DNA from: a virus | IMG/VR virus record: IMGVR_UViG_3300010389_000004 | Location: 30,082-94,081 of that record | Strand: one strand, 5' to 3' | DNA: 64,000 nucleotides | Notes under the pieces: model-generated | Told to the model about the DNA's origin: nothing | What the model saw: the letters and a program-made list of their open reading frames with translations, nothing else | Databases searched by the model: none | Shown here: piece after piece, positions 5,602 through 49,128 of the stretch | Numbering within the stretch: position 1 is the stretch's first letter | Layout: every line of letters begins with the position of its first letter | Position numbers and translations under genes: made by a program

Positions 5602-5615
5602 GCTGTTGACTCCTG

Positions 5616-6089
5616 TCAGGAGGACACCAGGCCCTCCCAATTCTTCTCAATTCGCGCAATCTCCTGCTCAGATAGCTCGGTTGCGCTACGTTCCGCTTCT
5701 TCCCAGGTCTTCCCGCTGACATCCCCGACAGACCAGGGCGAGTCAATCTTCCGACCCGTGAACTTCGCCATCGCTGCATCCAATTTACGCGCCATCTGCA
5801 ACACCTTGACCTGCTTAGCCCGCAGCTTGTCTTCCTCAGCCTGCTGCTTGCGCTCAACGGGACTGGGGTTTTTGCTGGAGAAGAGAAATTCCAGCTCCCG
5901 GTCCATGTCGCTGATGCTGTTGTCCAACGATTCGTTGAACTCCTTGGCGTGTTTGGCGGCCTCTTTGCTTAGAAGTCCTGCCAACGACAAAGAGAGAGCG
6001 CCTTGTAGTCGACGTCCCTCTTCCAGTTTGGATTTTATGCAGAGCATGATGTGAGCTTTGAACTGCCCGAGGGTCATGCTCTCCCGCAT
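5616..6089 (-). CDS. Tail assembly chaperone, C-terminal (T) part of the G-T frameshift product
   Basis: Lies between chaperone G and the tape measure gene. Its frame stays open upstream to the GGGAAAA slippery site at 6296. Confidence 0.75.
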   Translation of the reverse strand: MRESMTLGQFKAHIMLCIKSKLEEGRRLQGALSLSLAGLLSKEAAKHAKEFNESLDNSISDMDRELEFLFSSKNPSPVERKQQAEEDKLRAKQVKVLQMARKLDAAMAKFTGRKIDSPWSVGDVSGKTWEEAERSATELSEQEIARIEKNWEGLVSS

Positions 6090-26878: not shown

Positions 26879-27430
26879 CTACAGTTTCACGATACCGTAG
26901 CGAGCGTGGTATGCGATCGCCCCGTCAATGTACACAGCGTCCACGTCGATCTGCATCATCTCGTTCTGCGTACCGAACGGGGAGGACGCTGGAGCCACCT
27001 GCCCGTTGGTGAATTTATAGGCGGAGTTGACTGCCATGTTCAGGCTGCCGGGAGTAGCGTTGGTGTTTTTGATGTAGATCGTAAAGCCCTGTCTGCCAGT
27101 AGCAGAAGGTTCGTTGGTAGGGGCGTTGATTGTCAGCGTTCCCACAGACCCAAAATCCGCCACCACGATGAAGTTGTTCCCAAGGCTCAGGTCGATATCC
27201 ACAGAGTCAGTCGCGGAGACCGTCCCCAGATTGACTGCGGATTCAACCGTCGCCGCTGGACTGCCGTTGGGGTTTTCAATGATCGTGTAGACCAATTCCC
27301 CGGCGCTCTTGTTGTAAGCAACCCCCTGGATGATTGGGTCGGTGTAGCTGCTGGCCGACAACGCGGCCGCGATCGCAGCTTCAATATCCGACCCGCTGGT
27401 CAACACAGGGACTCGTAGAATTTCTGCCAT
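26879..27430 (-). CDS. Putative fibre-type structural protein
   Basis: VDIDLSLGNNF...LTINAPTN...QGFTIYI...YKFTNG pattern seen in phage fibre modules. Confidence 0.5.
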   Translation of the reverse strand: MAEILRVPVLTSGSDIEAAIAAALSASSYTDPIIQGVAYNKSAGELVYTIIENPNGSPAATVESAVNLGTVSATDSVDIDLSLGNNFIVVADFGSVGTLTINAPTNEPSATGRQGFTIYIKNTNATPGSLNMAVNSAYKFTNGQVAPASSPFGTQNEMMQIDVDAVYIDGAIAYHARYGIVKL

Positions 27431-27517
27431 TGTGCCTCTCCTGGAAAACGGCCTACACAAAAGATACGAGGGAGAACAGAGTCTCCCTCGTATCTCAGCA
27501 AATGCGGCTCCGCAATT

Positions 27518-27889
27518 CTACTTGGGCATGGGCGGGGCACCCGCTTGGGATGCCGGCGACATGTTCGCGTTGTCGGCGCCTGGGGCACCCCCAGCGGCAG
27601 GCGGGGCGGTCACGCCAGTTTCGATCTCTTGCTTGGCTTCGGCGAGGTTCGTCAAACCAACTTCGATCTTGGCAACGGTCTCCTCAGAAACCGCGGGGTC
27701 GGCTTCAGCAACCTTGTGGGCTTCCAGGCCGGCAGCCTGCGCAACCGTCAAAGCCTCAGTTGCCTTCTTCGCAGATTCCGCATCCGTCGCCGGCGGCTTG
27801 TCAGCAGCGGGTTGGGCAGCGGGTTGACCGGGCTGGGGAACGGTCGGAGGGACCTGCTTCCCGGCACCTTGGGTAGGCGCATCGTTCAT
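27518..27889 (-). CDS. Low-complexity Ala/Pro-rich protein
   Basis: AGGAG RBS before the ATG at 27889. Confidence 0.65.
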   Translation of the reverse strand: MNDAPTQGAGKQVPPTVPQPGQPAAQPAADKPPATDAESAKKATEALTVAQAAGLEAHKVAEADPAVSEETVAKIEVGLTNLAEAKQEIETGVTAPPAAGGAPGADNANMSPASQAGAPPMPK

Positions 27890-27955
27890 GTGATTCTCCT
27901 GGTTCAAGAATTACGTTGGGCTTCTCCCAAACATACGGTCGGGAAACGACCTCCA

Positions 27956-29926
27956 TCAGCCCATCCTAGCGTTGATGTACGCTTGGTGGAAGTCGTTATC
28001 TGTCTCCTGACGGTTGTGCTCAACCTTGGCGTAGAGTGCTGGGTTTGAACGCACCATCTCTTCCAAAGCGGCTTGTGCGCCAAGACCTCGTGAGACGTTG
28101 AAGGACATTCTCTGTAGAACAGCCAAGCCATCCACAATTGAGTCCACACAGTCATCGTGAGCGCCTGAAGGGAAAGCACACAGCTCGTCGATCGCTGCGT
28201 CAACCGAGGGGTTACGCTGCCCTGGCAGCAGATTGAAGGGCGCTGCCCATTCCCCACGTTCGAAAATGGGAGAAACGCCGAGGGCTCGGGTGGTCTTTGA
28301 ATTGTTCCCGCGCTTCACCTCATACACCGGAGCGTGAAACCCAAGGCGGATGCTCAACTCATTGAGGGAATCAGCCAAGGCTTTTTGGAATGCCACGGAT
28401 TCCACGAGAAAACCCAGGTGATGGAACGCGAATGCTTCCTCAGCGACGCCCTTACCCACCGTACCTGATCCCCAATACGACGCGCCTACTCGATTCGAGT
28501 AATAGACGTAGTGCTTGAACATCAACATCATGATGCCAGCCATCGTGGTTCTGACGCGATCGACATCAAGCAGGTAGTATTTGCGTGTGCGGATTGAATA
28601 GCCCTGGGTGACGATAGCCGTGAAGTCATTATCGGCTTCTTCTGCACGCTTACCTCGTGAACCAGCAGGGTCCAATGAGGTAATGCAGATCAGGTCATCA
28701 GGCAGAACCTCCAGATTGAGGTTATTCATTTCCAGGTGGCGGAGTACGTTATCAGGTAATTCCTCACCCTTGCGCACCCAATACTTGATCCATGCTCGGT
28801 GGACGTATTTCGTTGCGTCATCCACAGGCTCCAGCATGAATTCCTTCTGGAAAGCCCGAGACCCCAAGTCTCTCAATTTCCAGGATAGGTACGGGAGGTA
28901 GTAGATCGGCTGATTGGTCGCTTGCCGGTAAGCGAGTTCGGATTCGGTGAGTGGGTTACGCCATTCATCAATTGGGCGTAGAGGATCCATCGCTCCGTAC
29001 TTTTGCTCCCACAACGGGTTTATGGGCAAGCCTTGCTCAGTGAATCCCTCACACGCTGGTTGCTTCGTCTTGATCCAGTTCGTTGTCCTGCGCTTGTCTT
29101 TCCATAAGCGCATAACCAGATCGTCCTCATGCACGGTCGTACCGATGACGATGATATTGCCCACGCCAAGAGAGGGCACGTTGGATAGCGCTCCCCAGAA
29201 CCAGTCCCATAACGACTCTCTAACCTTCACTGATTTGACGTGCTTGTCCTCAATGATGTCATCCAAGATGAGTAGGTCAGGACGCACGGATACCAGGTTG
29301 TTATAGATCGGCTGACCATACCGGTTCTTGGTGACGTAGCCTGAAGGCAAGTCATCCGGGAAGGACTCGTTGGCACCACGGAGCGCACCACCTGTTGAAG
29401 CTGAGAATACGGCTACCTGGTTGGTGGTTCTCAGGTACTTGTGACGCCAGCCTTGCTTCTTGGCTCCGCCAGTTTCGGTGTCGCCTACCAAGTCTCCGAA
29501 AGCCTTTCGGATTACCTCGTTCTGCTCAAGCTCCATTCGAATCTTGCCAAGGAAGCGCTCAGCGTTTCCTGACGTGCTGGAGATGACGCCGATGTACCGA
29601 CGCTTGCGGTAGCAGACGCACCAGAGCACATACGCAAAAGAGACCACGGTGGATTTGCCGTGATCTCGTGGAACGAGCTTCAGGAGGTGTTTGCCGTTCT
29701 TGAGTGTTTGTAGGTCTTGGATCAACCCCGAGTGAAAGGGTGCGAAGTGCTCTGAGAAGTGACCCGCCAGGAATACCCTACAGAACATCTTGAACGAGCC
29801 AGCACACAGCAAGGTCCACTCTTTGAGAGTGTACTTGGAGAAGTCAACCTTGACCGGATCGAGGACGGCTGGGGACATACTGCTTTTCTCTACGACGACA
29901 ACAGAGACCGAATAGAGTGCCGTCAT
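27956..29926 (-). CDS. terL: Terminase large subunit (likely start 29878)
   Basis: Walker A PRDHGKST, Walker B LILDD, nuclease motifs SLDPAGS and FPSGAHDDCVDS. Confidence 0.95.
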   Translation of the reverse strand: MTALYSVSVVVVEKSSMSPAVLDPVKVDFSKYTLKEWTLLCAGSFKMFCRVFLAGHFSEHFAPFHSGLIQDLQTLKNGKHLLKLVPRDHGKSTVVSFAYVLWCVCYRKRRYIGVISSTSGNAERFLGKIRMELEQNEVIRKAFGDLVGDTETGGAKKQGWRHKYLRTTNQVAVFSASTGGALRGANESFPDDLPSGYVTKNRYGQPIYNNLVSVRPDLLILDDIIEDKHVKSVKVRESLWDWFWGALSNVPSLGVGNIIVIGTTVHEDDLVMRLWKDKRRTTNWIKTKQPACEGFTEQGLPINPLWEQKYGAMDPLRPIDEWRNPLTESELAYRQATNQPIYYLPYLSWKLRDLGSRAFQKEFMLEPVDDATKYVHRAWIKYWVRKGEELPDNVLRHLEMNNLNLEVLPDDLICITSLDPAGSRGKRAEEADNDFTAIVTQGYSIRTRKYYLLDVDRVRTTMAGIMMLMFKHYVYYSNRVGASYWGSGTVGKGVAEEAFAFHHLGFLVESVAFQKALADSLNELSIRLGFHAPVYEVKRGNNSKTTRALGVSPIFERGEWAAPFNLLPGQRNPSVDAAIDELCAFPSGAHDDCVDSIVDGLAVLQRMSFNVSRGLGAQAALEEMVRSNPALYAKVEHNRQETDNDFHQAYINARMG

Positions 29927-29942
29927 AGTGCGGGTGTGTCAA
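29914..29942 (-). promoter_or_regulatory. Possible sigma70 promoter for terL
   Basis: TTGACA-17-CACTCT immediately after the RNA's last hairpin; the -10 element is weak. Confidence 0.3.
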
Positions 29943-30368
29943 ATGAGAAAGCCCGGACCGGGCGAGGAGATCCGGGCTTCTCGATGCAGGCTCGCGCAGG
30001 GAAGAGCTGCAAGCCTGCTTGGTGCAGGAGACACGGGCAACGTCTCCTGTTTGGGTCTCCCCTCCCACCACAGATGGGAGACCCGTCTGCTCGTCTCGGG
30101 GCTAGGAGACGAGCAAGGTGAGGGTGGTAGAGTGTTGGGGGCTACCACCCTTGTGAGACTGCCTGCCTTTCCCCGTGCGGGCAGTCTCGTGTCGGCATTC
30201 TCCACAGGGATGCGAAACCTGCGTGCTCCTGCCGACAAAATAAGGAGCGGGTGAGTGGCTGATGAGGTGCAGATGACCACCCACCCTGAACCCCGTGGTG
30301 ACTCCTCATGACGGTCTGTGTGTGCGTTCCACACCATGAGAAGTTGTACCTACACAGTACGAGGGTCT
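29940..30368 (-). ncRNA. Putative novel ~430-nt multi-hairpin structured RNA
   Basis: About 11 contiguous stem-loops; most mismatches are G-U on the minus strand; promoter upstream; last hairpin followed by a U-rich tail. Confidence 0.75.
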
Positions 30369-30374
30369 GAGGGT

Positions 30375-30403
30375 AAGTTACGTTTACTGAGTTCCTCATG
30401 CAA
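30375..30403 (-). promoter_or_regulatory. sigma70-type promoter driving the hairpin RNA
   Basis: TTGCAT (30403-30398), 17-nt spacer, TAACTT (30380-30375). Confidence 0.65.
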
Positions 30404-30407
30404 TAGG

Positions 30408-30433
30408 AAAAGCCGTCCATGGGCAGGACGGCT
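30408..30433 (-). terminator. Intrinsic terminator ending the accessory operon
   Basis: AGCCGTCC-tgcccat-GGACGGCT-TTT. Confidence 0.7.
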
Positions 30434-30542
30434 CTCACTACGGGCTGTAACTACGAGTTGAGTGCAGCGATGACCTGGACAGCGTTGGGTGGAACACTCG
30501 GTCTTTCTCGCCCATTATCGTAGCCAGGCTCCTGAGGGTTGC

Positions 30543-30734
30543 TCAATACTCGAACTCGCCCACCCACTTCCTACGCAACAGCGCCTCACGCGTTGACTGA
30601 TGCATCAGCTTTACCAGGGCATCATCTTGTCGCTCGGCTTCCTCATACCACTCCCCTATCGAGTAGAATTCTGGCTGGTCGGAGTCTTCAGGCAGCAGCC
30701 AGGCGAACACTGAAGCTGTTGCGTCGTAGCCCAC
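30543..30734 (-). CDS. Hypothetical protein
   Basis: ORF in a packed operon. Confidence 0.5.
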   Translation of the reverse strand: MGYDATASVFAWLLPEDSDQPEFYSIGEWYEEAERQDDALVKLMHQSTREALLRRKWVGEFEY

Positions 30735-30738
30735 GAAT

Positions 30739-30888
30739 TCATTCTCCCAGGTTATTGACCTTTTCCAGGGCGTTCAGCAGAGAGTCGTATACCGGCGCCC
30801 ACTTCTCGCGCTCCTCGGCGCCTTTGTTCATGATTGCGTCTACTGACCCAATCAGCTTGGTGATTTCTCTGGCGATATCATCTGACAT
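30739..30888 (-). CDS. Small hypothetical protein (49 aa, MSDDIAREI...)
   Basis: GAGGA RBS; fills an intergenic gap. Confidence 0.55.
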   Translation of the reverse strand: MSDDIAREITKLIGSVDAIMNKGAEEREKWAPVYDSLLNALEKVNNLGE

Positions 30889-31315
30889 TGAGTGCGTCCT
30901 CGATCAACTCAATCAGAGGGAGGTGGATTTGAATGCCATGCGCTCTGTATTCGACCCCCGAGTGTTTACCCAGTACCTGCGCTGAAGCACACCAGACCTC
31001 TTGGGGGTCTGTATCGTTTGGAGATTTGATAAGGCGACGCACAAACTCCAGCTTGAGAGAAAAGAGCTTACCGATACTCGCTAGCCTCAGCAGCATGTCA
31101 TAACAGAGTATGGCATAAGCGACTTCAGGAGGACACGACGCGAAAATCCCTATACCCTCTTCTCCTTTTCCCTCACCACGACGGTCTGCTACCAAGGCTT
31201 CGCCGAATCCCCAGAGGATCCCCATATTGCCGGCGCCGCCCCCAAACTCGGGCAAATCCCACTCCAGTTTCGTGTACAGGTCGGTGATGTCCGCCAGGGC
31301 TTGTTTGAAATCCAC
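30878..31315 (-). CDS. Hypothetical protein
   Basis: ORF in a packed operon. Confidence 0.6.
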   Translation of the reverse strand: MDFKQALADITDLYTKLEWDLPEFGGGAGNMGILWGFGEALVADRRGEGKGEEGIGIFASCPPEVAYAILCYDMLLRLASIGKLFSLKLEFVRRLIKSPNDTDPQEVWCASAQVLGKHSGVEYRAHGIQIHLPLIELIEDALNVR

Positions 31316-31317
31316 AG

Positions 31318-31572
31318 CTATTCCATTTCATGCAAGAGATCTACTGACCGGAGGAGTTTGGTCTTCAGGAGGTCAGGTAGGTTTTTGTGCTCCGCCGATT
31401 CCTGACAACCAGCCTTCTCCAACGTATCCAACATATCGAGAAACGTGGAGAGCTTTTCTGGGTAAGGTAATACCAACACGCCTGTTTTGCGAGCCTTCCT
31501 GACCCGCTCGATCATGTCCGATAGGGAGATGATATCGCCTGGTCTTCCACCTCTACCTTTGGGCATCGTCAT
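31318..31572 (-). CDS. Hypothetical protein
   Basis: ORF in a packed operon. Confidence 0.6.
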   Translation of the reverse strand: MTMPKGRGGRPGDIISLSDMIERVRKARKTGVLVLPYPEKLSTFLDMLDTLEKAGCQESAEHKNLPDLLKTKLLRSVDLLHEME

Positions 31573-32050
31573 TACCCCAAGCTTTTATTTCTGGAGTCCC
31601 CTCAGAAACGTCCACTGAGAGAAAGACGCGATGGTCTTCTCGCATTCGACAGGTGTATTGTCTGATTACGGACATGTACGCTCGGTGGGGGTATTCGCCA
31701 GAAATGTTGTAGCTCCCCATGTCCTCTACTGCGTTATCGTAGAAATACACTTTGCCCACCAGTGCTTCCCTGTTTGGGAGTTCTTTATTGATGACGATAT
31801 GCCCGCACTTCAGCGTATGGACTACTTCAAAAGCCCAATTCATCAGGTCAAACGTGAAGAGTGCGATAGCAGCGTCATCAGAAATACCTTGTGGTTGTCC
31901 GTCGTTCCCGACAGTCGCGTGAAACCTTCCCCAGAAGAAGTAAGCGGGCAAAGAAGACTTGACCGGGCTCGTCTTGCCATAATCAGGCTGCTCACGGTTA
32001 TGCTCTTCGTAGAAGCTCTTGATATCTCGTAGTTCTTGTCCGTGGTTCAT
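31553..32050 (-). CDS. Hypothetical protein
   Basis: Start moved to the ATG at 32050, coupled (ATGA) to the upstream small ORF. Confidence 0.6.
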   Translation of the reverse strand: MNHGQELRDIKSFYEEHNREQPDYGKTSPVKSSLPAYFFWGRFHATVGNDGQPQGISDDAAIALFTFDLMNWAFEVVHTLKCGHIVINKELPNREALVGKVYFYDNAVEDMGSYNISGEYPHRAYMSVIRQYTCRMREDHRVFLSVDVSEGTPEIKAWGNDDAQR

Positions 32051-32226
32051 AGGTCGTTCAGATCCTCCGCTACTTCCCACAGCTCAGTACCCACGATCCG
32101 CGCTTCCCAGGTTCCCACACTACCTGCGGGGTATGTCCACTGACGGTCTACGCATTTCACGGACACCTCTACACCCAAGACGTCTGACAGCAGAGCAGCG
32201 GCTTCTTCGTCAAAGTAACTGGTCAT
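32047..32226 (-). CDS. Small hypothetical protein (59 aa)
   Basis: AGGAG RBS; ATGA coupling. Confidence 0.55.
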   Translation of the reverse strand: MTSYFDEEAAALLSDVLGVEVSVKCVDRQWTYPAGSVGTWEARIVGTELWEVAEDLNDL

Positions 32227-32276
32227 ACTACAGGGACTCCTCTGGCTGCTGCTCCTCGGGGTTATCCCGGAGGTAT

Positions 32277-32417
32277 TCAGCGTAGGGTCTTAGGTCTTAG
32301 GTCCTTCCTCCAGGTGTCTGGCTTGGTGATGTAGGTTTCCTTGATACCAAGTCTCTTGGCTTCCCTCACCAGATACCTGCACATCTCATCCCACTTCTCT
32401 GCTTTCACGTCCATCAT
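32277..32417 (-). CDS. Small hypothetical protein (46 aa)
   Basis: AGGAG RBS. Confidence 0.5.
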   Translation of the reverse strand: MMDVKAEKWDEMCRYLVREAKRLGIKETYITKPDTWRKDLRPKTLR

Positions 32418-32443
32418 TTACTCCTGCTGGTGTTCGTAGGGTG

Positions 32444-32638
32444 TCACACACCGCCGCGTTTGCGTTTCTTACGCCTGGAAATCAGGCGGGCCATTTCTCG
32501 ACGAATCTCTCGATTAGAGGTAGTTGATTTGTAGCCATGCGGGGTTGCTACCCTGAGATGCCCACCGCGCCTTTTGCGGATGTTTTCAATGGCTTCTGAG
32601 CGTAGTTGCGCGTGGTCAATACCGTCACCCTGACTCAT
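32444..32638 (-). CDS. Small basic protein
   Basis: Arg/Lys-rich, 64 aa. Confidence 0.55.
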   Translation of the reverse strand: MSQGDGIDHAQLRSEAIENIRKRRGGHLRVATPHGYKSTTSNREIRREMARLISRRKKRKRGGV

Positions 32639-32927
32639 TCTCTTTTCCTTCCTTGAGTTTGTGGTACAGGTCTTCGCCTTTTTGCGTTAGCTCCCAATGT
32701 TTGGACTCACCAGGTCTCATGGCGTTGACGTCCCAAACATACCCTAGCCTGTCCAGAGCATGACAATGCCTCGTGACAAGAGATCGTCGGGCGGAATCAG
32801 CACGCACCCCTGCGGGGCGCCCACCACGAGGCCACATTGCCCTAGCCAGGTCAATCGTGTATTTGCGCCCGTCGCCGATCGCCAATAGCAGCTTTTCTTT
32901 GAAGGGCGTGAGCGGAACGGTGGTCAT
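32625..32927 (-). CDS. Winged-helix DNA-binding protein
   Basis: TIDLARAM...VTRHCHALDRLGYV...WELTQKG. Confidence 0.6.
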   Translation of the reverse strand: MTTVPLTPFKEKLLLAIGDGRKYTIDLARAMWPRGGRPAGVRADSARRSLVTRHCHALDRLGYVWDVNAMRPGESKHWELTQKGEDLYHKLKEGKENESG

Positions 32928-33511
32928 TCGGCTTCCTCGTTTTCAAGATCCGCCTTCGCTTTGGTAATCAAGCGATCCATGTGCTTATCAAGCGTACCGT
33001 CGAATACCTTTTGGAAGGCAGCAACCCCTCTCGCAACTGCGTCAGAATCTTCCCCCGAAAGCTCCTGCACCCACTTCTTCAAGTCCTCGGCGAGAGGCTT
33101 GTTCTCCGTTAGACAGGCGTAGGCCAAAATAGCCGCCCGAGCCGCAGCGTCCTTCTCCGGCTTCAGTACAAAGTAGCTGTCTTCCGCCGGCGTGCCGTCT
33201 TGCTTGGTGATGTCGTACTTCTGGTAGAGGCCGCGAGGTGCTTGGTGAATCTCCAGTCGGTCTGGGTCATCGTCTTCAGCCCACCGCACGAACTCAACCA
33301 ATAGGCAGTTGCACTGGCAGTCCTCAAGCTCGGCCGCTTCTCTTTCCAAGCGGTCGCGCAAATGGTTCTCGACGAGCTTCGCGGTGTTGCTCCCACAGTA
33401 CGACGTCCCGTTACCCCAGAAAGCCAGCCGTTCTGGATCCGCGGCCATCCCCTCGGAGATGTCCATCTTCATGTTCAAGGACACCTTCACGATTGCTTTT
33501 CGGATCTTCAT
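32924..33511 (-). CDS. Hypothetical two-domain phage protein
   Basis: C-terminal GLYQKY...YFVL..D..AR.A..AYA module that I recognise from other phage proteins. Confidence 0.6.
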   Translation of the reverse strand: MKIRKAIVKVSLNMKMDISEGMAADPERLAFWGNGTSYCGSNTAKLVENHLRDRLEREAAELEDCQCNCLLVEFVRWAEDDDPDRLEIHQAPRGLYQKYDITKQDGTPAEDSYFVLKPEKDAAARAAILAYACLTENKPLAEDLKKWVQELSGEDSDAVARGVAAFQKVFDGTLDKHMDRLITKAKADLENEEAE

Positions 33512-33765
33512 ACCTCACCCTTCTCGTCGCCTTCGTCGTCCAGTTCCACGGTGTTACCCAACATAGTCTCCGCAATGAGATCACAGGCGAAGGTAGCAGC
33601 CCCCAAACACTCGTAGGGAGAACCACCCTTCAACACCGAAGAGGCGTACCGCTCGTGCTTACTGAATATCACCGCAAGCACAAAGGAGCTAATGAGCTTA
33701 CGACGCCCCAGCTCTTGAGCGATCTGTTCCAAAGTTGCTTCACCCAGGGGCGTATCCATCTCCAT
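33508..33765 (-). CDS. Hypothetical protein
   Basis: Coupled ORF. Confidence 0.6.
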   Translation of the reverse strand: MEMDTPLGEATLEQIAQELGRRKLISSFVLAVIFSKHERYASSVLKGGSPYECLGAATFACDLIAETMLGNTVELDDEGDEKGEV

Positions 33766-33773
33766 GTCAGTCC

Positions 33774-34205
33774 TTACTCTTTATCAAAACCAAAGAACGC
33801 CCGAAGCCTGGCCAAACACGCCGTCCAAGCAGCCCCGTCGAGCTTATGGATAGCGTCATAGAGGACACGGGTTTCGGGGTGGTCAAAGCTCCGGTGAATT
33901 CCGACACCTAGTTGGCTCTTCATCAGCTTCAGAAAAGCTTCGAGCTTTGACACCTTCTCGTTGAGCTTCCTGAACTCCTCAGCCGCCTGACACCTCTTGA
34001 GAGACACCGTTTCTGGCGGGAGTTCGTGGGCGATGACCTCTCCGTCCACTCGGGATGAATACCAGGTCGAAAGCTCGCGTTGTTGCGCTACCCACTTTGC
34101 CGCAGCGTCTTGGGAGACGAACCCCGACACCGTGAGTCCGTCCTTATAGACCACACTCCATGTGCCTTGCTCAGTCTGGCAGCAGGCGTATTCCGCGTTC
34201 GGCAT
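33774..34205 (-). CDS. Hypothetical protein
   Basis: ORF with RBS. Confidence 0.6.
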   Translation of the reverse strand: MPNAEYACCQTEQGTWSVVYKDGLTVSGFVSQDAAAKWVAQQRELSTWYSSRVDGEVIAHELPPETVSLKRCQAAEEFRKLNEKVSKLEAFLKLMKSQLGVGIHRSFDHPETRVLYDAIHKLDGAAWTACLARLRAFFGFDKE

Positions 34206-34572
34206 CGGTTATCCTTTCGCCCCCTAAGAGCACGAATCGGTAGGAGAGTAAAAACAGATTGTTCTGATAAGCGAGCGTACCAATAGCCTTCAGCAGGCAC
34301 TCCGCAATGCCTTCCCACACCGTGTGTTTGGTTTTCCGGTCAAGCAGCTTTGTGTTACGTTCTTCAACCGCCACCTCAACCGGCTTGTTTGGGAGAAAGG
34401 CGAGAAGCATGGGGACTTCCGAAATGAAGTTCACCTCATGCACCAAATACCCACGCTCCGGGTGACGGATTCGTTGCTCGTTCACCACGGCGCCTACCTC
34501 TTCCCCAGCGACAATGAAGAACTGTGTCCCCGTCGCTGGAACAAAAGGTAGGTCTCGTAACACGTCCCGCAT
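34171..34572 (-). CDS. Hypothetical protein
   Basis: ORF in operon. Confidence 0.55.
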   Translation of the reverse strand: MRDVLRDLPFVPATGTQFFIVAGEEVGAVVNEQRIRHPERGYLVHEVNFISEVPMLLAFLPNKPVEVAVEERNTKLLDRKTKHTVWEGIAECLLKAIGTLAYQNNLFLLSYRFVLLGGERITDAERGIRLLPD

Positions 34573-34574
34573 AG

Positions 34575-35747
34575 CTATGCCTTGTTGCTGCCGGCGATCG
34601 CCTTGGTGATCGCGTCAACCGCCGAGAAGCCGTGCGCGAGAGGCACACCAACACCCGTCACCACCTGGTGCGTTGCTCCGTTACCCCAGTTACCTGTCGG
34701 ATGTTGTCGCACCTTCCACCCGAAGGAGTGAATGAGCGTCTCCAGGTTCGGCAACAAGAGTCGGACGGCCGCGTAATCAGAAACTCGCGAAGACTCTTCA
34801 TGCGCACCGCCACCACCGCCTACATACTCGTGGTTGTAGGCGGTGGCCATAGGCTCATCGGACTCAACGTCCCAAGCTATCCAACTCTCGACCCAACCAA
34901 CTGGAGTAACCACACGCTCATAGCAGCGCGGGTACCTGAAGGACACCGACTTGAGCCTCTCCACCGCCGTCGGGAGCGACACTTCCTTCGGTTGCTCGGG
35001 GCACGGGTTTTTGGCATGAATCGCAATCTCTGCTTCCAGCTCTTTCCGCAACTCAGCAACGTCGTGAAACTCCTTGCTGTGGATCTCGCTCGCTACCTCC
35101 ACCGCTCCCTCAAAACCGACAAGCGTTGAGCGAGCTTCGGATATCTCCGTCGCAGGCACCTTGCGCAGCTTCGGGAACGCCGCCTTCGTAGCAGCCCAGA
35201 TACCCATAGCTTCGACGGTCAGTTCGTAAACAGGACGCTTGAACAGATCCTTGCGGAACAAGCGTAAGTCGTGCTCCCAGACCAAAACGGGCGCTACAGG
35301 TGGCGCGTCTTCCTCAGCGTCTGGTACGTCCGTGACAGCAGTAGCGATGAACATGGAGTGCCCGCGACTATCACAAGCATCGGCTACTTTCCCCAAACCC
35401 TCCTGGTAGGTTGGGAGGAGATCTACCATGCGCTCCTTGATTCGATCAAGTAGTCCAGCCTCACCCTCGTGCTTGCAGAAATGAAGTGACAGCGCGTGCG
35501 CCGTGACCCAAGAGAGTATGGGGCACTTACTGGTACCAAACCCCGAAACCTCAAAGAGCTGCCGCACGGTGTACGAGGCAAGACCGTCTTTGGCTCCTTC
35601 TGCTTTGCTCTCAATCTCCAACACAGCGTTACCAACCGAGAAGTACTTCTTCTTACCCATTCTGCTCTCCGTTACTCCCGCACATACTTGCGGTAAAGTG
35701 TACTCAGCCCTCGCCATACCCCGACGACCAGACCGTACATATCCCAA
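34575..35747 (-). CDS. Hypothetical protein (start uncertain)
   Basis: 390-aa ORF. Confidence 0.65.
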   Translation of the reverse strand: MGYVRSGRRGMARAEYTLPQVCAGVTESRMGKKKYFSVGNAVLEIESKAEGAKDGLASYTVRQLFEVSGFGTSKCPILSWVTAHALSLHFCKHEGEAGLLDRIKERMVDLLPTYQEGLGKVADACDSRGHSMFIATAVTDVPDAEEDAPPVAPVLVWEHDLRLFRKDLFKRPVYELTVEAMGIWAATKAAFPKLRKVPATEISEARSTLVGFEGAVEVASEIHSKEFHDVAELRKELEAEIAIHAKNPCPEQPKEVSLPTAVERLKSVSFRYPRCYERVVTPVGWVESWIAWDVESDEPMATAYNHEYVGGGGGAHEESSRVSDYAAVRLLLPNLETLIHSFGWKVRQHPTGNWGNGATHQVVTGVGVPLAHGFSAVDAITKAIAGSNKA

Positions 35748-36118
35748 AACTCATGGGGCGTAAACCCCAGGTGAGTAGTTAGCTGATCCACATCCCAGGA
35801 GTCTGCCCTGGTCTGCAAAATACGCAACAACCTCAGCACTGCAAAAAGCCCCGAGGGGCTTTCCACGAATACCTGGCAGTAGCTCGCTCGGTAGTGGTAC
35901 TCAAGCACCTCTAGGCGAACCCCTCGAAACCGGTTAGCGGTCTCATCGCCGTGTTTGTACCCGGTTGTGTTTGGGGAGAAGAGCAACAGGGACTGCCCGT
36001 CTGGTACCTTCTTGCCCTCATAGGCAAGCACGCACCGCTTACTCTCCCCGTGGTAGATATCTCGACGAGGTAGGCCGACCTGCACAAAGTGCTCTACTAG
36101 TTCGTCAAGCGTGTGCAA
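35672..36118 (-). CDS. Hypothetical protein
   Basis: ORF in operon. Confidence 0.55.
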   Translation of the reverse strand: MHTLDELVEHFVQVGLPRRDIYHGESKRCVLAYEGKKVPDGQSLLLFSPNTTGYKHGDETANRFRGVRLEVLEYHYRASYCQVFVESPSGLFAVLRLLRILQTRADSWDVDQLTTHLGFTPHEFWDMYGLVVGVWRGLSTLYRKYVRE

Positions 36119-36121
36119 GCT

Positions 36122-36667
36122 CTACACCTCATTACCCCAAGCGTCCCAACCCGGACGGTGCTTTCGTGCGAACAGCTCGACATACGGCCCTGGAGAACAG
36201 CGCTCGATTACCTCGTAGAACTCTTCGGGTTTCTCGGAGTGTCGGGTCTTCGGAGCTAACACCAGGTTAGCTTGTGTTCTCGCACCTTCGGTGAGTTTAC
36301 CAAGACCTTGTGACCCCACCAGAACTATTTCAGAGGCTTGCCGAAACCACCACCCAAGCCCTCTGGGATCTACTAACCCCGCCTTGGTGGTCTTCCCCCA
36401 AACCAACATCCCTCGGTATTTGAACCCCCACGCACTCAGTACCTCCAAACCATCCGTCAGTAGTGCGTTGGGAACCCACACAAACGCTACTGAGTCTTGA
36501 GCAACCACCTCTTGCACAGGAAGGCGGCAGATATCCTCCACGGTCAACGTGGGGTAATGGAAAAGGCGCCCATGTTCTGGAGCGCCTTTTCCTGTCCTAC
36601 GACGAAACCGCCAAGGAGGGTCTGCCAGGAGAGTTTGGTACTCCCCTGCTTTTGGGAGGTCTAGCAC
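36122..36667 (-). CDS. MT-A70 family adenine methyltransferase
   Basis: LADPPW catalytic motif and HSEKP...VELFAR..RPGWDAWGNE. Confidence 0.9.
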   Translation of the reverse strand: MLDLPKAGEYQTLLADPPWRFRRRTGKGAPEHGRLFHYPTLTVEDICRLPVQEVVAQDSVAFVWVPNALLTDGLEVLSAWGFKYRGMLVWGKTTKAGLVDPRGLGWWFRQASEIVLVGSQGLGKLTEGARTQANLVLAPKTRHSEKPEEFYEVIERCSPGPYVELFARKHRPGWDAWGNEV

Positions 36668-37365
36668 GGCGCCGCCAGGATCTTGGCGAGCTTCGCACGA
36701 GAGTACCCGTAGGTATTACGAATCTCTTCTTGCGTCTTCTTCTTCGCCTCACGCTGCACCTTGCGGCACTGCGTCTTTGACTCAGGCGGTTCACGAAGGC
36801 CGGCACGGATCAATTCGACCACGGCGGAGTGAACAGAGATCCCGAACTTCTCCGCCATATACACTGCCGAAGGAAGCCCTTTCGCTTTCGCATGTGCGAC
36901 AAACTTCTTGCGCACGGATTCGGACAGGCCGGGGTTCAACGAGACTTTTGGGTCCAGGCCTGCGAGAGCTTTTGCCTCACTCACGTCAACCTTGGCTTCA
37001 GCGGCCGCACTCGTCAGGCTCGCTCCGCCTTTGTAGAGCTTCTTGAATTGGCTCTCTCGCGCTTTGCGGTCCTTGTCCGTCAGCGAGCGGCCAGCAACCC
37101 AATGCACGCGCAGCGGGGCAGGGAGTCGATCGGCGGGAATCATCTCGCGGATCTCCTTCAATCGTTTACCTACCGTCGTGGAGGACAGATCAACTTCATC
37201 ACCGATCTCTGCTGTTGACTTGAGGTGCTTCATGCGCAACCACCCAATAGTAACCAAGCGCTTCTCGCCACCCAGGGCTTCGATAAGCTCCTCCTTGGTC
37301 TCAATCACCTTACTCATAGAAACTACTCCTGAGAACATTTGACGGGTGTTCCCAGGAGTAGACAA
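36661..37365 (-). CDS. Multi-HTH DNA-binding protein
   Basis: Repeated HTH-like segments (STAEIGDEVDLSSTTV; SAVYMAEKFGISVHSA). Confidence 0.55.
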   Translation of the reverse strand: MSTPGNTRQMFSGVVSMSKVIETKEELIEALGGEKRLVTIGWLRMKHLKSTAEIGDEVDLSSTTVGKRLKEIREMIPADRLPAPLRVHWVAGRSLTDKDRKARESQFKKLYKGGASLTSAAAEAKVDVSEAKALAGLDPKVSLNPGLSESVRKKFVAHAKAKGLPSAVYMAEKFGISVHSAVVELIRAGLREPPESKTQCRKVQREAKKKTQEEIRNTYGYSRAKLAKILAAPC

Positions 37366-37391
37366 AAAACTCAGTGAGTCCGCAAGGGCTT

Positions 37392-37787
37392 CTATTCGAC
37401 TTTCAACCCTCGGTCGGCTTGACCGGTAGCACGCTTGTGGAGCTTCATCACGGTCTTGGAAACCATATCACCGAGCGACAGGCCTAGCGTGTCCAGCAAC
37501 ACCATGAAGTACCAGAAGAAGTCGCCAAGCTCTTCTTCGAGCGCGGCACGCAGAACCTCAAGGTCTTGGTACTTCGGGTCGCCACGCATCCACTTCCCGA
37601 TGAGATCAGCTACCTCGCCCATCTCGCCAGACATCTTCACGCACAGGTAGGGAAGGTGCCCCTCACTGCCAAGAAACTTCTCGGTCTTCTCATCTGACGG
37701 GAACACCGCCGTCTTCTTGAACTCCTGAGCGATCGCTCCGCCCTGTTGGTTCAAAACGTCATACTGCAAGGTCATCAAAACCTCCAA
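37392..37787 (-). CDS. MazG-like nucleotide pyrophosphohydrolase
   Basis: GEMGEVADLIGK...EEELGDFFWY. Confidence 0.85.
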   Translation of the reverse strand: MEVLMTLQYDVLNQQGGAIAQEFKKTAVFPSDEKTEKFLGSEGHLPYLCVKMSGEMGEVADLIGKWMRGDPKYQDLEVLRAALEEELGDFFWYFMVLLDTLGLSLGDMVSKTVMKLHKRATGQADRGLKVE

Positions 37788-38403
37788 GATCTCCTTCGAC
37801 TTCGCGAAGGAACTCGCCTAGTCGCTCTTGCAACTCCACAAGAGCATCGGAATCAAGTACCACGCCGGAGCTACCCGACCTGAACACTTCTTTGCCTTCG
37901 TAGGTGATCGTGGAAACCACAGGCGGACAGTCATTCCACCAAGCGATCGTCCCGATGCTCCTCGGGAAGTGCTTCTTGAATCGTGCGCGTAGCTTTGGCC
38001 ACGAGGTTTGGCCACCTACTGTTCGGAAGTGGGTAGGGTGACACACCTGCTGATTCATGAGTTCAACCAGAGCATCAAACAAGGCCCTGAAGAACAGCAT
38101 CCGGCTTTCGTTTGGAGCGCTTGTGGACATCATAGCGTGCAGATTGGAAAAGCACTTGACGTTACCAGCCTCAACCCCGCAATACCGGTTACTGACTGAC
38201 AGCATGGAGACTTCGACCTTCACCAAACTGCCGACCACCATAGACTCGCTATCTTCACTCCACTCCACCCCATCAATGACTTTCGCTCGGGACTGGATCC
38301 CCCCTTCCCTCGTCTTCACCACCAGGCTCAACCCAGGATCTGCGAACACATCCTCATTGAAGCACATCGAAATGAACTGCTTGGTGTACTCCTTGTTACC
38401 CAC
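37759..38403 (-). CDS. Hypothetical protein
   Basis: ORF in operon. Confidence 0.6.
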   Translation of the reverse strand: MGNKEYTKQFISMCFNEDVFADPGLSLVVKTREGGIQSRAKVIDGVEWSEDSESMVVGSLVKVEVSMLSVSNRYCGVEAGNVKCFSNLHAMMSTSAPNESRMLFFRALFDALVELMNQQVCHPTHFRTVGGQTSWPKLRARFKKHFPRSIGTIAWWNDCPPVVSTITYEGKEVFRSGSSGVVLDSDALVELQERLGEFLREVEGDLGGFDDLAV

Positions 38404-38407
38404 GCTC

Positions 38408-38734
38408 CTACTCCCATTTCTCCGTCAGTGGTACATCCACCGCCCACTCGATGTAGCTCTTATGCGTAGGGGACTCGATCCAAACACACACCCTGCCCAC
38501 CATGACAAGCACCCAAACGGGTGAGAAGGTGAGGATACATACTAAAGGCAGCGACACAAACAAAGAAGGCCACGCACATGGTGGCCTCCCCAAAAGGACT
38601 CGTCTTGCCAGGTCTATGAGGAACATGAAGAAAGACCCGCACCCAAAGAAGAAATTCAGCAGTTCGATAATCGCCCCGCAGACGATGGTCATCCAAAACA
38701 AGTTGACCACCACGTCACTGAGATAGGAGGTCAC
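38408..38734 (-). CDS. Membrane protein
   Basis: Two long hydrophobic segments. Confidence 0.55.
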   Translation of the reverse strand: MTSYLSDVVVNLFWMTIVCGAIIELLNFFFGCGSFFMFLIDLARRVLLGRPPCAWPSLFVSLPLVCILTFSPVWVLVMVGRVCVWIESPTHKSYIEWAVDVPLTEKWE

Positions 38735-38901
38735 TTCTTCTTCTCTTCATCAAAGAAGTAGCCAAGCATCAAGAGAACCGCCATAGCCCCGAAGAGCATC
38801 AAACCCCACGCGGTCCAATCCGGCAATGCTCCTTCGTGGATCAGGTAGGCAAACACCAGCATCCACATACCTGTAAGCAGGCACACAGGAATCGTCTTCA
38901 T
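38731..38901 (-). CDS. Small two-TM membrane protein (56 aa)
   Basis: MKTIPVCLLTGMWMLVFAYL...WGLMLFGAMAVLLMLGYFF; AAGGAG RBS. Confidence 0.6.
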   Translation of the reverse strand: MKTIPVCLLTGMWMLVFAYLIHEGALPDWTAWGLMLFGAMAVLLMLGYFFDEEKKK

Positions 38902-38910
38902 CACATCTCC

Positions 38911-39417
38911 TTATCTGAGACCAGCCAGGTAGAACCTACGGCACAGGCTCAACCGAACTGAATCGGGATTCTTGAATTTCGACACCAACTGGTCGGGGAA
39001 AATCAACATCAAGGCGTCCAACGAAGTGCCGACGGCGGAAGACACCATTTGAAAACCGTCCTGAGTTTTGAACATCTCCAGGCAGTCTTCTTCGGAAGGC
39101 AGCCCTTCGAGCCCCATACCTTCCGCTACCAGGACATCGCGGAATTGATTAGAGATTTCACCCAGCACATGCTCGATGTCGTCTTTGAAGGACTCCAGCG
39201 TAGTCCCCTCTACGAAGTCCGCGTCCTCCAAAAAGGTGTAGCCTGTGTTCTTCGCTATCCACAGACCCACACTGTATCGCCCGTATTTTGAAACCAGCTC
39301 ACCCAAGGACTGCATAGCAAGAGACACGCGCTTGCGCGTCTTTTGCTGCTTACCGCCCTTACTCTTCCTCTGTTTGTTGTTCTTGCTCATCTTGCTCTTC
39401 CACGAGGGAACCGTCAT
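38911..39417 (-). CDS. Hypothetical protein with a basic N-terminus
   Basis: ORF in operon. Confidence 0.6.
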   Translation of the reverse strand: MTVPSWKSKMSKNNKQRKSKGGKQQKTRKRVSLAMQSLGELVSKYGRYSVGLWIAKNTGYTFLEDADFVEGTTLESFKDDIEHVLGEISNQFRDVLVAEGMGLEGLPSEEDCLEMFKTQDGFQMVSSAVGTSLDALMLIFPDQLVSKFKNPDSVRLSLCRRFYLAGLR

Positions 39418-45350: not shown

Positions 45351-45770
45351 CTACTGAACACGACGTGAGGCTATTTCCGCCTCATGAACTTGCTTGATTT
45401 TGTTTCGCAGGGATATCAAGCAGAATCCCTTCAATAGCTCGATGCCATCCGAAACCAAGGACACCATCTGAGCGTGCGAGGAGTACCTGACGTCTGCCTC
45501 CATCCATATGGAGCAGTGCTTCTCGCTCAACTTGCCTCGCGGGTGGTTGCGTGAGTCTTCCCAGTACTCACTGTACAACACAGCCCTTACTCGGGCTAAG
45601 TCGATTCGCAAAAAACTCAACACCCACACCATCTTCGCAAGGAGCTTCGTCCCTGACTCGTACCGCTCTTCAAGCCCATGCACCTGGGTCAAGTTCAAGT
45701 ACGGGTGGAGGTCAAAAACCTCATGGGTTAGCCCGCCTGTTGAGTCCTTGTATTGTACCGCGATCAGCAT
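45351..45770 (-). CDS. UvsY-like recombination mediator (putative)
   Basis: Helical 139-aa protein with a KLSEK....W..AD.RY pattern, between Pol and SSB. Confidence 0.45.
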   Translation of the reverse strand: MLIAVQYKDSTGGLTHEVFDLHPYLNLTQVHGLEERYESGTKLLAKMVWVLSFLRIDLARVRAVLYSEYWEDSRNHPRGKLSEKHCSIWMEADVRYSSHAQMVSLVSDGIELLKGFCLISLRNKIKQVHEAEIASRRVQ

Positions 45771-49045: not shown

Positions 49046-49092
49046 GTTGCTCCCTTCACTAGCTACTGAGTACCGCAGCGTAACGCAACGGA

Positions 49093-49128
49093 AGAAGCGG
49101 CGCAAAGGAAAACCCTTACGCCGCTTCT
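49093..49128 (-). promoter_or_regulatory. 16-bp hairpin upstream of polA (terminator/attenuator or processing site)
   Basis: AGAAGCGGCGUAAGGG-UUUU-CCUUUGCGCCGCUUCU with two G-U pairs on the minus strand. Confidence 0.55.

What the first reader, a model, noticed from the sequence alone, without database searches (positions are those of the whole stretch)
29940..30433. Independently transcribed ~430-nt string-of-hairpins RNA directly upstream of the terminase
Seen in sequence: about 11 stem-loops, at 30346-30360, 30305-30340, 30249-30286, 30190-30237, 30155-30188, 30121-30151, 30088-30115, 30053-30084, 30025-30049, 29986-30018 and 29945-29982. The last eight are separated by only 1-6 nt, have 8-12-bp GC-rich stems and recur about every 35 nt. 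The stems differ in sequence, so this is not a repeat array, although GAGAC/GUCUC recurs in four. Most plus-strand A/C mismatches become G-U pairs on the minus strand. The unit is bracketed by an upstream terminator (30408-30433), a TTGCAT-17-TAACTT promoter, and a final hairpin with a U-rich tail. Inference: a dedicated phage non-coding RNA that matches no tRNA, tmRNA, RNase P or CRISPR pattern I recognise. Possible roles: packaging RNA (by analogy with phi29 pRNA), precursor processed into ~30-nt hairpin RNAs, multi-site protein decoy, or multi-target antisense RNA.
Basis: partly seen in the sequence, partly recalled or inferred. Interest (0 to 1): 0.9.

Follow-up and report, generated by a model that had tools for sequence, protein, structure and literature searches.

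The report
Orphan hairpin-string RNA leader before terminase
A roughly 430-base gene-free stretch just before the DNA-packaging gene of an uncultured aquatic phage is a real chain of about ten unrelated, very stable RNA hairpins that matches no known RNA family; it is most likely an unusually long folded leader RNA of the late genes, but it has no relatives and no expression data, so its job is unproven.

Summary
Window 29945-30344 (minus strand, the gene strand) folds into ten consecutive hairpins; an eleventh (H1) is weak. The fold is far more stable than shuffles (z -9.3) and is the most structured stretch of the 94-kb genome. Seven of the genome's 57 perfect hairpins with stems of 8 bp or more lie within 500 nt here.

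The overlapping 132-aa ORF scores like a wrong-frame ORF, so the stretch is non-coding. Three asymmetries favour a minus-strand RNA over a DNA signal:
- 15 G-U pairs on the minus strand against 8 on the plus strand.
- Loops that are C-rich and G-poor.
- Linkers that are 21 of 22 A or C, with no G.

No Rfam family reaches threshold. The best hit is ar14 ("cuckoo" sRNA) at 32.5 bits against a cut-off of 58.8. The defining features I could test for cuckoo RNA, pRNA, CsrB-type sponges, ToxI or CRISPR arrays and retrons were not met.

The array lies between two typical intrinsic terminators. Phages with 38-53% TerL identity have no such array. Two of them carry a strong promoter, a short leader and a terminator before terL.

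My best reading is an expanded, terminator-gated leader RNA of the late operon (about 0.4). A stand-alone trans-acting RNA is nearly as likely. Transcription is untested. Earlier notes of this scan describe comparable RNA arrays in other phages.

The parts
30404..30440 (-). T0: intrinsic terminator of the upstream operon. It has a GC-rich 7-11-bp stem, a 7-nt loop and a UUUUCCUAUU tail.
   Evidence: dG -20.1; pair probability 0.93. It has the same A-tract/U-tract style as other intergenic terminators of this genome.
30374..30403 (-). It matches only 3/6 + 3/6 consensus positions.
   Evidence: It is present in the sequence, but the scan does not call it. It scores 6/12, like many intragenic chance matches.
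30244..30381 (-). The 5' part of the array. H1 (30346-30381) is weak. H2 is 30301-30344. H3 is 30244-30294, has four G-U pairs and is followed by UUAUUUU.
   Evidence: pair probabilities 0.31, 0.80, 0.76.
29986..30237 (-). The core array: seven independent hairpins. H4 30190-30237, H5 30155-30188, H6 30121-30151, H7 30087-30116, H8 30053-30084, H9 30025-30049, H10 29986-30018. Stems are 8-12 bp. Together with the 3-nt H10-H11 linker, the linkers of H4-H11 hold 21 of 22 A or C and no G.
   Evidence: pair probabilities 0.95-1.00. Loops are C-rich and G-poor.
29940..29982 (-). H11: the last hairpin plus its UUUCUCAUUU tail, an intrinsic terminator 66 nt before the terL start. Its loop holds CUCCUC.
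   Evidence: terminator-like site; dG -22.1; 0.92. In natural variants the loop changes while the stem is kept.
29879..29939 (-). Spacer between H11 and terL. It holds a strain-variable patch (six SNPs at 29916-29934) and a weak ribosome-binding site.
27956..29878 (-). terL, the large terminase (640 aa). The real start is the ATG at 29878, not the one at 29926.
   Evidence: Pfam Terminase_6C. The 640-aa form is on record. The ATG at 29926 is lost in variant contigs.
29939..30337 (-). A spurious 132-aa ORF that overlaps the array.
   Evidence: Its codon score is -0.249. Wrong-frame ORFs score -0.29 +/- 0.11 and real genes +0.30 +/- 0.085. It has no Pfam or PHROG match.

Best explanation
The stretch is a non-coding element that acts as RNA on the gene strand. 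It is an unusually long (about 420 nt), modular leader at the start of the packaging and structural (late) operon.

Proposed mechanism:
1. Transcription that passes or starts just after terminator T0 produces an RNA that folds, as it is made, into about ten independent hairpins joined by A/C-only linkers.
2. Most transcripts stop at the last hairpin, H11, which is an intrinsic terminator. This releases a compact, nuclease-resistant RNA, comparable in position to lambda 6S RNA.
3. terL and the genes behind it are expressed only by read-through or antitermination.
4. With at most 6 unpaired nt between hairpins, the dense folding would also keep Rho and RNases off an untranslated leader.

Shown: the hairpins, their non-coding nature, the strand asymmetry, the two bracketing terminators, the position at the border of the conserved late module, and promoter-leader-terminator units before terL in two related phages.

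Inferred: that it is transcribed, where the transcript begins and ends, that H11 terminates, and any role of the individual hairpins.
For: Structure:
- The structure is real and extreme.
- The stretch is non-coding by codon usage.
- All genes of the genome lie on this strand, so the stretch is almost certainly transcribed in this sense.

Strand asymmetry:
- 15 G-U pairs and dG -234 on the minus strand; 8 G-U pairs and dG -219 on the plus strand.
- Unpaired bases are 37-42% C and 15% G. The genome strand is 26% C and 29% G, P about 0.001.
- Linkers hold 11 A, 10 C, 1 U and 0 G. By my arithmetic the chance of that is about 4e-6, a test chosen after seeing the data.

Terminators:
- T0 and H11 look like the genome's other intrinsic terminators.

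Position:
- The array sits where lineage-specific genes (30543-39417, no homologues in relatives) meet the conserved terL-portal module.

Related phages:
- L003 and L110 (79% TerL identity to each other) both carry an 11/12 sigma-70 promoter, TTGACA-18-TAGAAT, 120-150 nt before terL. It is followed by hairpin(s) and an intrinsic terminator that ends at or just before the terL start.
- L002 and L005 also have a terminator just before terL.

Same genome:
- The late module contains several same-strand terminators, which would need read-through.
Against: - The tools show no transcript, 5' end or 3' end.
- No convincing promoter lies upstream of the array.
- No antiterminator gene was identified.
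- The relatives' leaders are only about 100-130 nt with one or two hairpins, and they share no sequence with this array. The comparison is therefore by analogy, not homology.
- A leader does not need eight hairpins that are not terminators.
- The C-rich loops and the sub-threshold ar14 match point more towards a trans-acting RNA.
- No relative close enough for a covariation test exists in the collections I could search. The next TerL after the near-identical copies is 53% identical.
Confidence: 0.4

Rival explanations
1. A stand-alone trans-acting multi-hairpin RNA, either a riboregulator or a sponge. It would be an accessory RNA gene bracketed by two terminators. Its exposed C-rich or anti-Shine-Dalgarno-like loops would pair with G-rich ribosome-binding regions of host or phage mRNAs, or its hairpins would soak up a structure-specific RNA-binding protein or RNase. 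It might be cut into single hairpins. It would work like the cuckoo/CcsR sRNA clusters of alphaproteobacteria.
For: - It is bracketed by terminators.
- Loops are C-rich and G-poor.
- RUCUCCY occurs 4 times in 140 nt against 30 times in 94 kb. It is the complement of this phage's GGAGA Shine-Dalgarno consensus.
- The loops of H10 and H11 expose CUCUUCCC and CUCCUC.
- H9-H11 give the best Rfam hit, ar14: 32.5 bits, E 0.0011 in 2.5 kb and 1e-5 for that family alone on the whole genome.
- Cuckoo RNAs are strings of adjacent hairpins with variable stems, in clusters of up to nine copies (PMC4615179).
- The array sits in a lineage-specific, variable slot, as accessory genes do.
Against: - The ar14 score is well below the gathering cut-off, and sub-threshold ar14 hits occur in 9 of 14 control genomes.
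- No loop has the CCUCCUCCC motif.
- Three of the four RUCUCCY motifs are buried in stems.
- No loop target stands out in the phage. The best is a 12-nt match inside the long ORF 45764-49105, which matches phage family-A DNA polymerases, and a match of that length is expected by chance about a quarter of the time.
- No DUF1127 partner gene was found.
- The host is unknown.
- The promoter is weak.
Confidence: 0.27
2. A DNA-level signal: a packaging recognition (pac/cos) region or another protein-binding or cruciform region next to the terminase gene.
For: - It lies directly upstream of terL, and no small terminase is recognisable in the flanking ORFs.
- The core hairpins H5-H9 are nearly perfect palindromes, which would form equally well in DNA.
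Against: - The ten palindromes are all different, so no single DNA-binding protein could read them.
- The strand-specific features (G-U pairs, G-free linkers, C-rich loops) mean nothing for duplex DNA.
- Loops of 7-11 nt disfavour cruciforms.
- The contigs laid here run straight through the region without an end or a joint.
- There is no turn in GC skew here.
- From my own knowledge, known pac/cos sites use repeated binding boxes, not unrelated palindromes.
Confidence: 0.07
3. A by-product without a dedicated function. Hairpins or terminator remnants would have piled up at a recombination-prone module boundary, tolerated because the slot is non-essential.
For: - The array is an orphan. It is absent from every relative examined.
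- It sits at a mosaic junction.
- A strain-variable patch adjoins it.
Against: - Eight hairpins at regular spacing of about 35 nt, with G-free linkers and near-perfect stems, are hard to get without selection.
- Phage genomes this densely packed rarely keep 600 nt of junk.
- The 343 nt of the array covered by a second study's contig are identical, while the adjoining spacer varies.
Confidence: 0.12
4. A template or precursor RNA for another enzyme system. One option is a retron-like multi-template RNA copied by a phage reverse transcriptase. Another is a plus-strand CsrA/RsmA-type sponge.
For: - Earlier notes of this scan describe phage retron RNAs with one leader and about nine unrelated hairpins. 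I have not verified those notes.
- On the plus strand, two of eight loops would show GGA.
Against: - No reverse transcriptase (PF00078) was found in the 94 kb held.
- The hairpins have no shared primer-pairing motif at their ends.
- There is no Rfam match to CsrB, RsmX, RsmY or RsmZ on either strand.
- All genes, the G-U asymmetry and both terminators point to the minus strand.
Confidence: 0.04
5. The region encodes the 132-aa protein of ORF 29939-30337.
For: An ATG-initiated ORF of 132 codons exists on the gene strand.
Against: - Its codon score of -0.249 falls within the wrong-frame distribution.
- It has no family match.
- A 1-nt insertion in the natural variants shifts the frame of its last codons.
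- There is no ribosome-binding site of this phage's GGAGA type before its ATG.
Confidence: 0.02

Closest known systems
Cuckoo / ar14 / CcsR sRNA family of alphaproteobacteria (Rfam RF02344; PMC4615179, PMC8034643)
   Same: - Strings of adjacent hairpins a few nucleotides apart, with stems that differ freely in sequence.
- Pyrimidine-rich loops that resemble an anti-Shine-Dalgarno sequence.
- Clusters that can reach many hairpins in one transcript, which ends in a terminator.
- It is the best Rfam hit here, over H9-H11.
   Different: - None of the eleven loops has the family's one conserved feature, CCUCCUCCC.
- The CM score is 32.5 bits against a gathering score of 58.8.
- There is no DUF1127 gene upstream.
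- It is carried by a phage of unknown host, directly before terL.
Late-operon leaders of lambdoid phages (PR'-6S RNA-tR', with Q antitermination; some hold tRNA or other RNA genes). This comparison rests on my own knowledge.
   Same: - A non-coding transcribed stretch that ends in an intrinsic terminator immediately upstream of the late (lysis/packaging) operon.
- Expression of the late genes would need read-through.
- Relatives L003 and L110 show a strong promoter plus terminator before terL.
   Different: - No convincing promoter, no Q-like gene and no qut-type site was identified here.
- The leader is twice as long as lambda 6S RNA and is built from ten separate hairpins.
- There is no sequence or family relationship.
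Protein-sponge RNAs built from many hairpins (CsrB/CsrC, RsmX/Y/Z, CrcZ)
   Same: Size (about 350-420 nt), and an architecture of many small hairpins that ends in a terminator.
   Different: - Those RNAs carry a repeated loop or linker motif (GGA, or the A-rich CA motif).
- Here the loops share no motif and are C-rich.
- There is no Rfam match.
phi29 prohead RNA (pRNA)
   Different: - There is no Rfam hit.
- pRNA is one 120-174-nt two-domain fold that forms rings through loop-loop pairing. Loop complementarity here is at chance level.
- This phage has a standard nuclease-bearing TerL.

Membership tests
Cuckoo / ar14 / CcsR sRNAs | Two to four (or clustered) adjacent hairpins with variable stems | tested here: met
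   Eight to ten adjacent hairpins with unrelated stems and 1-6-nt linkers. The family description comes from PMC4615179.
Cuckoo / ar14 / CcsR sRNAs | Each hairpin loop carries CCUCCUCCC | tested here: not met
   No loop has the motif. The nearest are CUCCUC in H11 and CUCUUCCC in H10.
Cuckoo / ar14 / CcsR sRNAs | Score at or above the Rfam RF02344 gathering threshold (58.8 bits) | tested here: not met
   The score is 32.5 bits at 29944-30056 on the minus strand. Sub-threshold hits also occur in 9 of 14 control genomes.
Cuckoo / ar14 / CcsR sRNAs | For the Rhodobacter CcsR type: co-transcription with an upstream DUF1127 gene | tested here: not met
   No PF06568 match in the 94-kb genome. The upstream 63-aa ORF has no Pfam hit.
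phi29-type pRNA | Match to the Rfam pRNA model, and intermolecular loop-loop pairing | tested here: not met
   No such hit at E up to 10. Loop complementarity does not exceed shuffles.
CsrB/RsmZ-type sponge RNA | GGA motifs in most hairpin loops | tested here: not met
   Minus-strand loops are C-rich and G-poor. On the plus strand only 2 of 8 loops would show GGA, read from the sequences. No Rfam hit.
Type III antitoxin (ToxI-like), CRISPR or Racr arrays | Tandem near-identical direct repeats | tested here: not met
   Only three trivial two-copy direct repeats of 13-19 nt were found.
Retron msr-msd (multi-template variant) | A reverse transcriptase gene in the genome, and a shared priming motif | tested here: inconclusive
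   No PF00078 match in the 94 kb, and no motif shared at the hairpin ends. The record is only 78% complete, so an RT elsewhere cannot be excluded.
Intrinsic (Rho-independent) terminators (T0 and H11 only) | A GC-rich hairpin followed directly by a U-rich tract | tested here: met
   T0 is followed by UUUUCCUAUU and H11 by UUUCUCAUUU. They have the same style as the genome's other intergenic terminators.
Lambda-type late leader (promoter-leader-terminator with antitermination) | A strong constitutive promoter upstream of the terminator | tested here: inconclusive
   The window has only a 6/12 match. Relatives L003 and L110 have an 11/12 promoter in the equivalent place.
Lambda-type late leader (promoter-leader-terminator with antitermination) | A cognate antiterminator (Q-like protein, or a put/nut-type RNA) | not tested
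   No search for antiterminator families was run. The ORFs scanned in 30543-37787 gave no antiterminator family in Pfam; four of them were also run against PHROGs, with no match.

The most novel reading that the evidence does not exclude
The array is a new class of phage RNA gene: one transcript that delivers eight or more unrelated, independently folding hairpin modules. These would act either as a broad structural decoy for a host RNA-sensing or RNA-cutting factor, or as a precursor cut at the A/C linkers into about 30-nt hairpin RNAs. It would have no counterpart in Rfam.
Probability: 0.2. Interest if true: 0.8.

Novelty: new variant of a known kind. Interest (0 to 1): 0.55.

Why it matters
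Phage non-coding RNAs are poorly catalogued. The slot just before the packaging genes is emerging, in this scan and in lambdoid phages, as a place where phages keep RNA genes.

This case is unusually clean. It has eight to ten stable hairpins with no shared sequence. Its linkers and loops look selected for independent folding of the RNA. It sits between two terminators at the early/late border.

If it is a leader, it would show a termination-controlled late switch in a deep-branching, uncultured phage lineage with an SU10-like capsid and a Mu-like terminase. If it acts in trans, it would be a new modular phage riboregulator or decoy. Either way the prediction is concrete and can be tested by RNA-seq.

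Tried and rejected
- I could not inspect the terL-upstream regions of the ENA- and Logan-only relatives P0007-P0009. P0004 may correspond to L110/L111, but that is unverified.
- **Expression.** No RNA holder was listed among the public runs. Only DNA contigs could be laid, so nothing can be said about expression. Parts of the stretch (for example 30326-30895) had no cover in runs X2-X4. That is no finding.
- **DNA similarity searches found no homologue.**
  - blastn against 50,697 phage records: no match.
  - The array against four related genomes: only 18-nt chance hits.
  - Exact-stem scans of IMG/VR for H7 and H6: only unrelated single terminators.
- **Relatives through neighbouring genes.** terL as a single query found nothing in IMG/VR. 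The 145-aa upstream ORF found nothing. Upstream ORFs have no homologues in G001-G003.
- **Covariation test.** Not possible. The only other copies are nearly identical.
- **Hairpin clusters elsewhere.** The clusters of 3-4 in G001, L072 and L077 turned out to be ordinary paired terminators, a GC-rich coding stretch or an AT-rich region, not arrays.
- **Loop-loop kissing code.** The longest complementary run is 5 nt, and 91% of shuffles reach that. Rejected.
- **Loop targets in the phage transcriptome.** The best is a 12-nt match of the H6 loop at about 48916, which is not significant.
- **Restriction-site decoy idea for GAGAC/GTCTC.** The motif has normal frequency genome-wide. Rejected.
- **Phage-specific promoter motif.** K-mer enrichment in 49 gaps returned only Shine-Dalgarno-like words.
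- **Homology of H11 to the relatives' terL-proximal terminators.** The alignment shows none.
- **Host.** Not resolved. TerL and polymerase hits are at most about 25% identical and spread over many hosts. The atlas search points only weakly to Pseudomonadota.
- **Small terminase.** Not found among the upstream ORFs.
Full report
**Setting.** The window is bases 30082-94081 of a 94,081-nt IMG/VR virus record that is linear and estimated 78% complete. All credible genes lie on the minus strand. The ORF at 27956-29926(-) is the large terminase: it matches Pfam Terminase_6C, and its nearest cultured relatives are Mu-like terminases at about 25% identity. Its true start is the ATG at 29878. The database holds the 640-aa form, and the upstream ATG at 29926 is lost in natural variants. 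The ORF matching the SPP1-type portal family weakly (below the Pfam cut-off, but conserved beside terL in relatives) and an SU10-like major capsid protein lie downstream. An MT-A70 methylase and MazG lie upstream, as does a long ORF that matches phage family-A DNA polymerases at about 25% identity. Between the stop of a 63-aa ORF (30543) and terL (29878) there are about 660 nt without a credible gene.

- Folding 29927-30440 as minus-strand RNA gives -242.7 kcal/mol. Dinucleotide shuffles give -184 +/- 6.3, so z is -9.3. The plus strand gives z -4.85.
- In a 591-nt context, pair probabilities are 0.92-1.00 for H4-H11 and 0.93 for the upstream terminator T0. They are 0.80 for H2 and 0.76 for H3. 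H1 reaches only 0.31 and is doubtful.
- A sliding 150-nt fold over the whole genome puts its four most stable windows here.
- Of the genome's 57 perfect hairpins with stems of 8 bp or more, seven fall in one 500-nt window, where about 0.3 is expected.
- No window exceeded four in three related genomes or in 519 kb around 80 other terL genes. The clusters of 3-4 that I inspected were not arrays.
- The array is not an assembly artefact. A 9,653-nt contig from another run spans it, and contigs from two further studies cover parts of it.

**Coding or not?** The 132-aa ORF (29939-30337) has a codon-usage score of -0.249. That lies within the wrong-frame distribution (-0.29 +/- 0.11) and far from real genes (+0.30 +/- 0.085). 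It has no Pfam or PHROG match. A 1-nt insertion in natural variants shifts the frame of its last codons. It is not a gene.

**RNA or DNA, and which strand?** Three asymmetries point to a minus-strand RNA.
1. The local fold has 15 G-U pairs and -234 kcal/mol on the minus strand, against 8 G-U pairs and -219 kcal/mol on the plus strand. H3 alone has four G-U pairs.
2. Unpaired positions are 37-42% C and about 15% G, whereas the genome's minus strand is 26% C and 29% G (P about 0.001).
3. The seven linkers between H4 and H11 read C, ACA, CACC, AC, AAA, CACCAA and AUC. That is 11 A, 10 C, 1 U and no G.

G-free linkers and G-poor loops minimise misfolding, so each hairpin folds on its own. They have no meaning for duplex DNA. 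The core hairpins H5-H9 are near-perfect palindromes, so a DNA role cannot be excluded for them. But ten different palindromes cannot serve one DNA-binding protein. The contigs laid here run through without an end or a joint. GC skew does not turn here.

**Known families.**
- cmscan against Rfam 15 finds nothing at gathering thresholds anywhere in the window. ARAGORN finds no tRNA or tmRNA.
- At relaxed thresholds the best hit is ar14 (RF02344) on H9-H11, at 32.5 bits against a cut-off of 58.8. ar14 belongs to the 'cuckoo' family. These are two to four adjacent hairpins with freely varying stems, each loop carrying CCUCCUCCC. In Rhodobacteraceae they occur in clusters of up to nine copies (PMC4615179). 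In Rhodobacter they are co-transcribed with a DUF1127 gene (PMC8034643).
- This is the closest known architecture, but membership fails. No loop has the motif, the score is sub-threshold, no DUF1127 gene exists, and sub-threshold ar14 hits are common in control genomes.
- RUCUCCY, the complement of this phage's GGAGA ribosome-binding consensus, occurs four times in 140 nt against 30 times in 94 kb. Three of the four copies are buried in stems.
- There are no direct repeats, which excludes ToxI, CRISPR and Racr-type arrays.
- Loops show no GGA motif, which excludes CsrB/Rsm-type sponges.
- There is no pRNA match, and loop-loop complementarity is at chance level.
- No reverse transcriptase is present in the 94 kb held.

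**Transcription signals.** T0 (30404-30440) and H11 (29945-29982, plus its U-rich tail) resemble the genome's other intrinsic terminators. H3 is followed by UUAUUUU and could be a third terminator. That is my inference. The scan does not call it, and it is no better than many intragenic matches. 'Independently transcribed' is therefore not established.

**Comparative evidence.**
- The terminase has no relative between the near-identical copies and 53% identity among 5.8 billion proteins, so covariation cannot be tested.
- Relatives at 38-53% TerL identity have an ordinary ORF and a 120-180-nt gap before terL, and no array. These are L002, L003, L005, L110/L111, L114 and L115.
- Genes upstream of the array have no homologues in the related genomes, while terL and the ORFs downstream of it do. 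The array therefore sits at the junction of a lineage-specific region and the conserved late module.
- L003 and L110 are 79% identical to each other in TerL. Both carry an 11/12 sigma-70 promoter, TTGACA-18-TAGAAT. It is followed by hairpin(s) and an intrinsic terminator that ends at or just before the terL start. This is a promoter-leader-terminator unit, like lambda PR'-6S-tR'. It shares no sequence with the window's array.

**Natural variation.**
- Contigs from other runs are identical over 29965-30307.
- They differ in two small patches. Six SNPs fall at 29916-29934, in the spacer after H11. Two SNPs and a 1-nt insertion fall at 29959-29964, in the loop of H11. The H11 stem is untouched.
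- This fits constraint on the hairpins, but it is far too little to prove it.

**Interpretation.**
- I put about 0.7-0.8 on the stretch functioning as a structured minus-strand RNA.
- Within that, I favour (0.4) an expanded, terminator-gated leader of the late operon. Its dense folding would shield an untranslated RNA from Rho and RNases, and H11 would make terL expression depend on read-through.
- A stand-alone trans-acting RNA of the cuckoo or sponge type is nearly as likely (about 0.27).
- The other readings get less: accumulated junk 0.12, a DNA-level packaging signal 0.07, a retron-like template or plus-strand sponge 0.04, and a protein-coding gene 0.02.

**Novelty and score.** The array belongs to no known family but resembles known kinds: multi-hairpin sRNA clusters and terminated late leaders. 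Earlier notes of this scan describe arrays of small structured RNAs in front of packaging genes in other phages. I did not verify them. I rate it a new variant of a known kind, with interest 0.55. It is real and striking, and it can be tested directly. It is also a single-lineage orphan with no expression or covariation evidence.

Noticed in passing
window 29916-29964: There is a strain-variable patch amid otherwise identical sequence. Six SNPs fall within 19 nt (29916-29934). Two SNPs and a 1-nt insertion fall in the loop of the last hairpin (29959-29964). Three haplotypes occur across the four runs. This could be a short gene-conversion tract or a spot under diversifying pressure.
   Followed up: partly
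G000:C1:3190-3750 (outside the window, minus strand): A second hairpin-rich non-coding stretch lies in the same genome. The architecture parallels the terL leader.
   Followed up: partly
L003:2731-2885 and L110:1851-1970: Two related phages share an 11/12 sigma-70 promoter, TTGACA-18-TAGAAT, about 120-150 nt before terL. It is followed by an intrinsic terminator that ends at or just before the called terL start. In L003 the G-rich 3' arm of the terminator could double as the ribosome-binding site.
   Followed up: partly
window 63193-63232: This is an 18-bp perfect hairpin, the longest in the genome. It lies in an intergenic gap near the window end. A second strong hairpin lies 70 nt downstream (63095-63127).
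   Followed up: no
window 27462-27495: A 14-bp hairpin (GGGAGAC/UUCUCCC type) with a U tail lies in the short gap between the ORFs at 27518-27907 and 26879-27460, two ORFs downstream of terL. It is one of several same-strand terminators inside the late module, which would need read-through.
   Followed up: no
G000:C1:3000-13000 (outside the window): Many ORFs of 80-220 aa in this part of the genome have near-zero or negative codon scores (-0.18 to +0.19), unlike the rest of the genome. The cause could be a different gene class, many spurious ORFs, or more non-coding sequence.
   Followed up: no
window 1-5640: A giant ORF of more than 1,880 aa runs off the window start. It has no Pfam match.
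   Followed up: no
window 48905-48916: A 12-nt stretch is perfectly complementary to the H6 loop (GUGUUGGGGGCU). It lies about 190 nt into the long ORF 45764-49105, which matches phage family-A DNA polymerases. A match of this length is expected by chance about a quarter of the time.
   Followed up: partly
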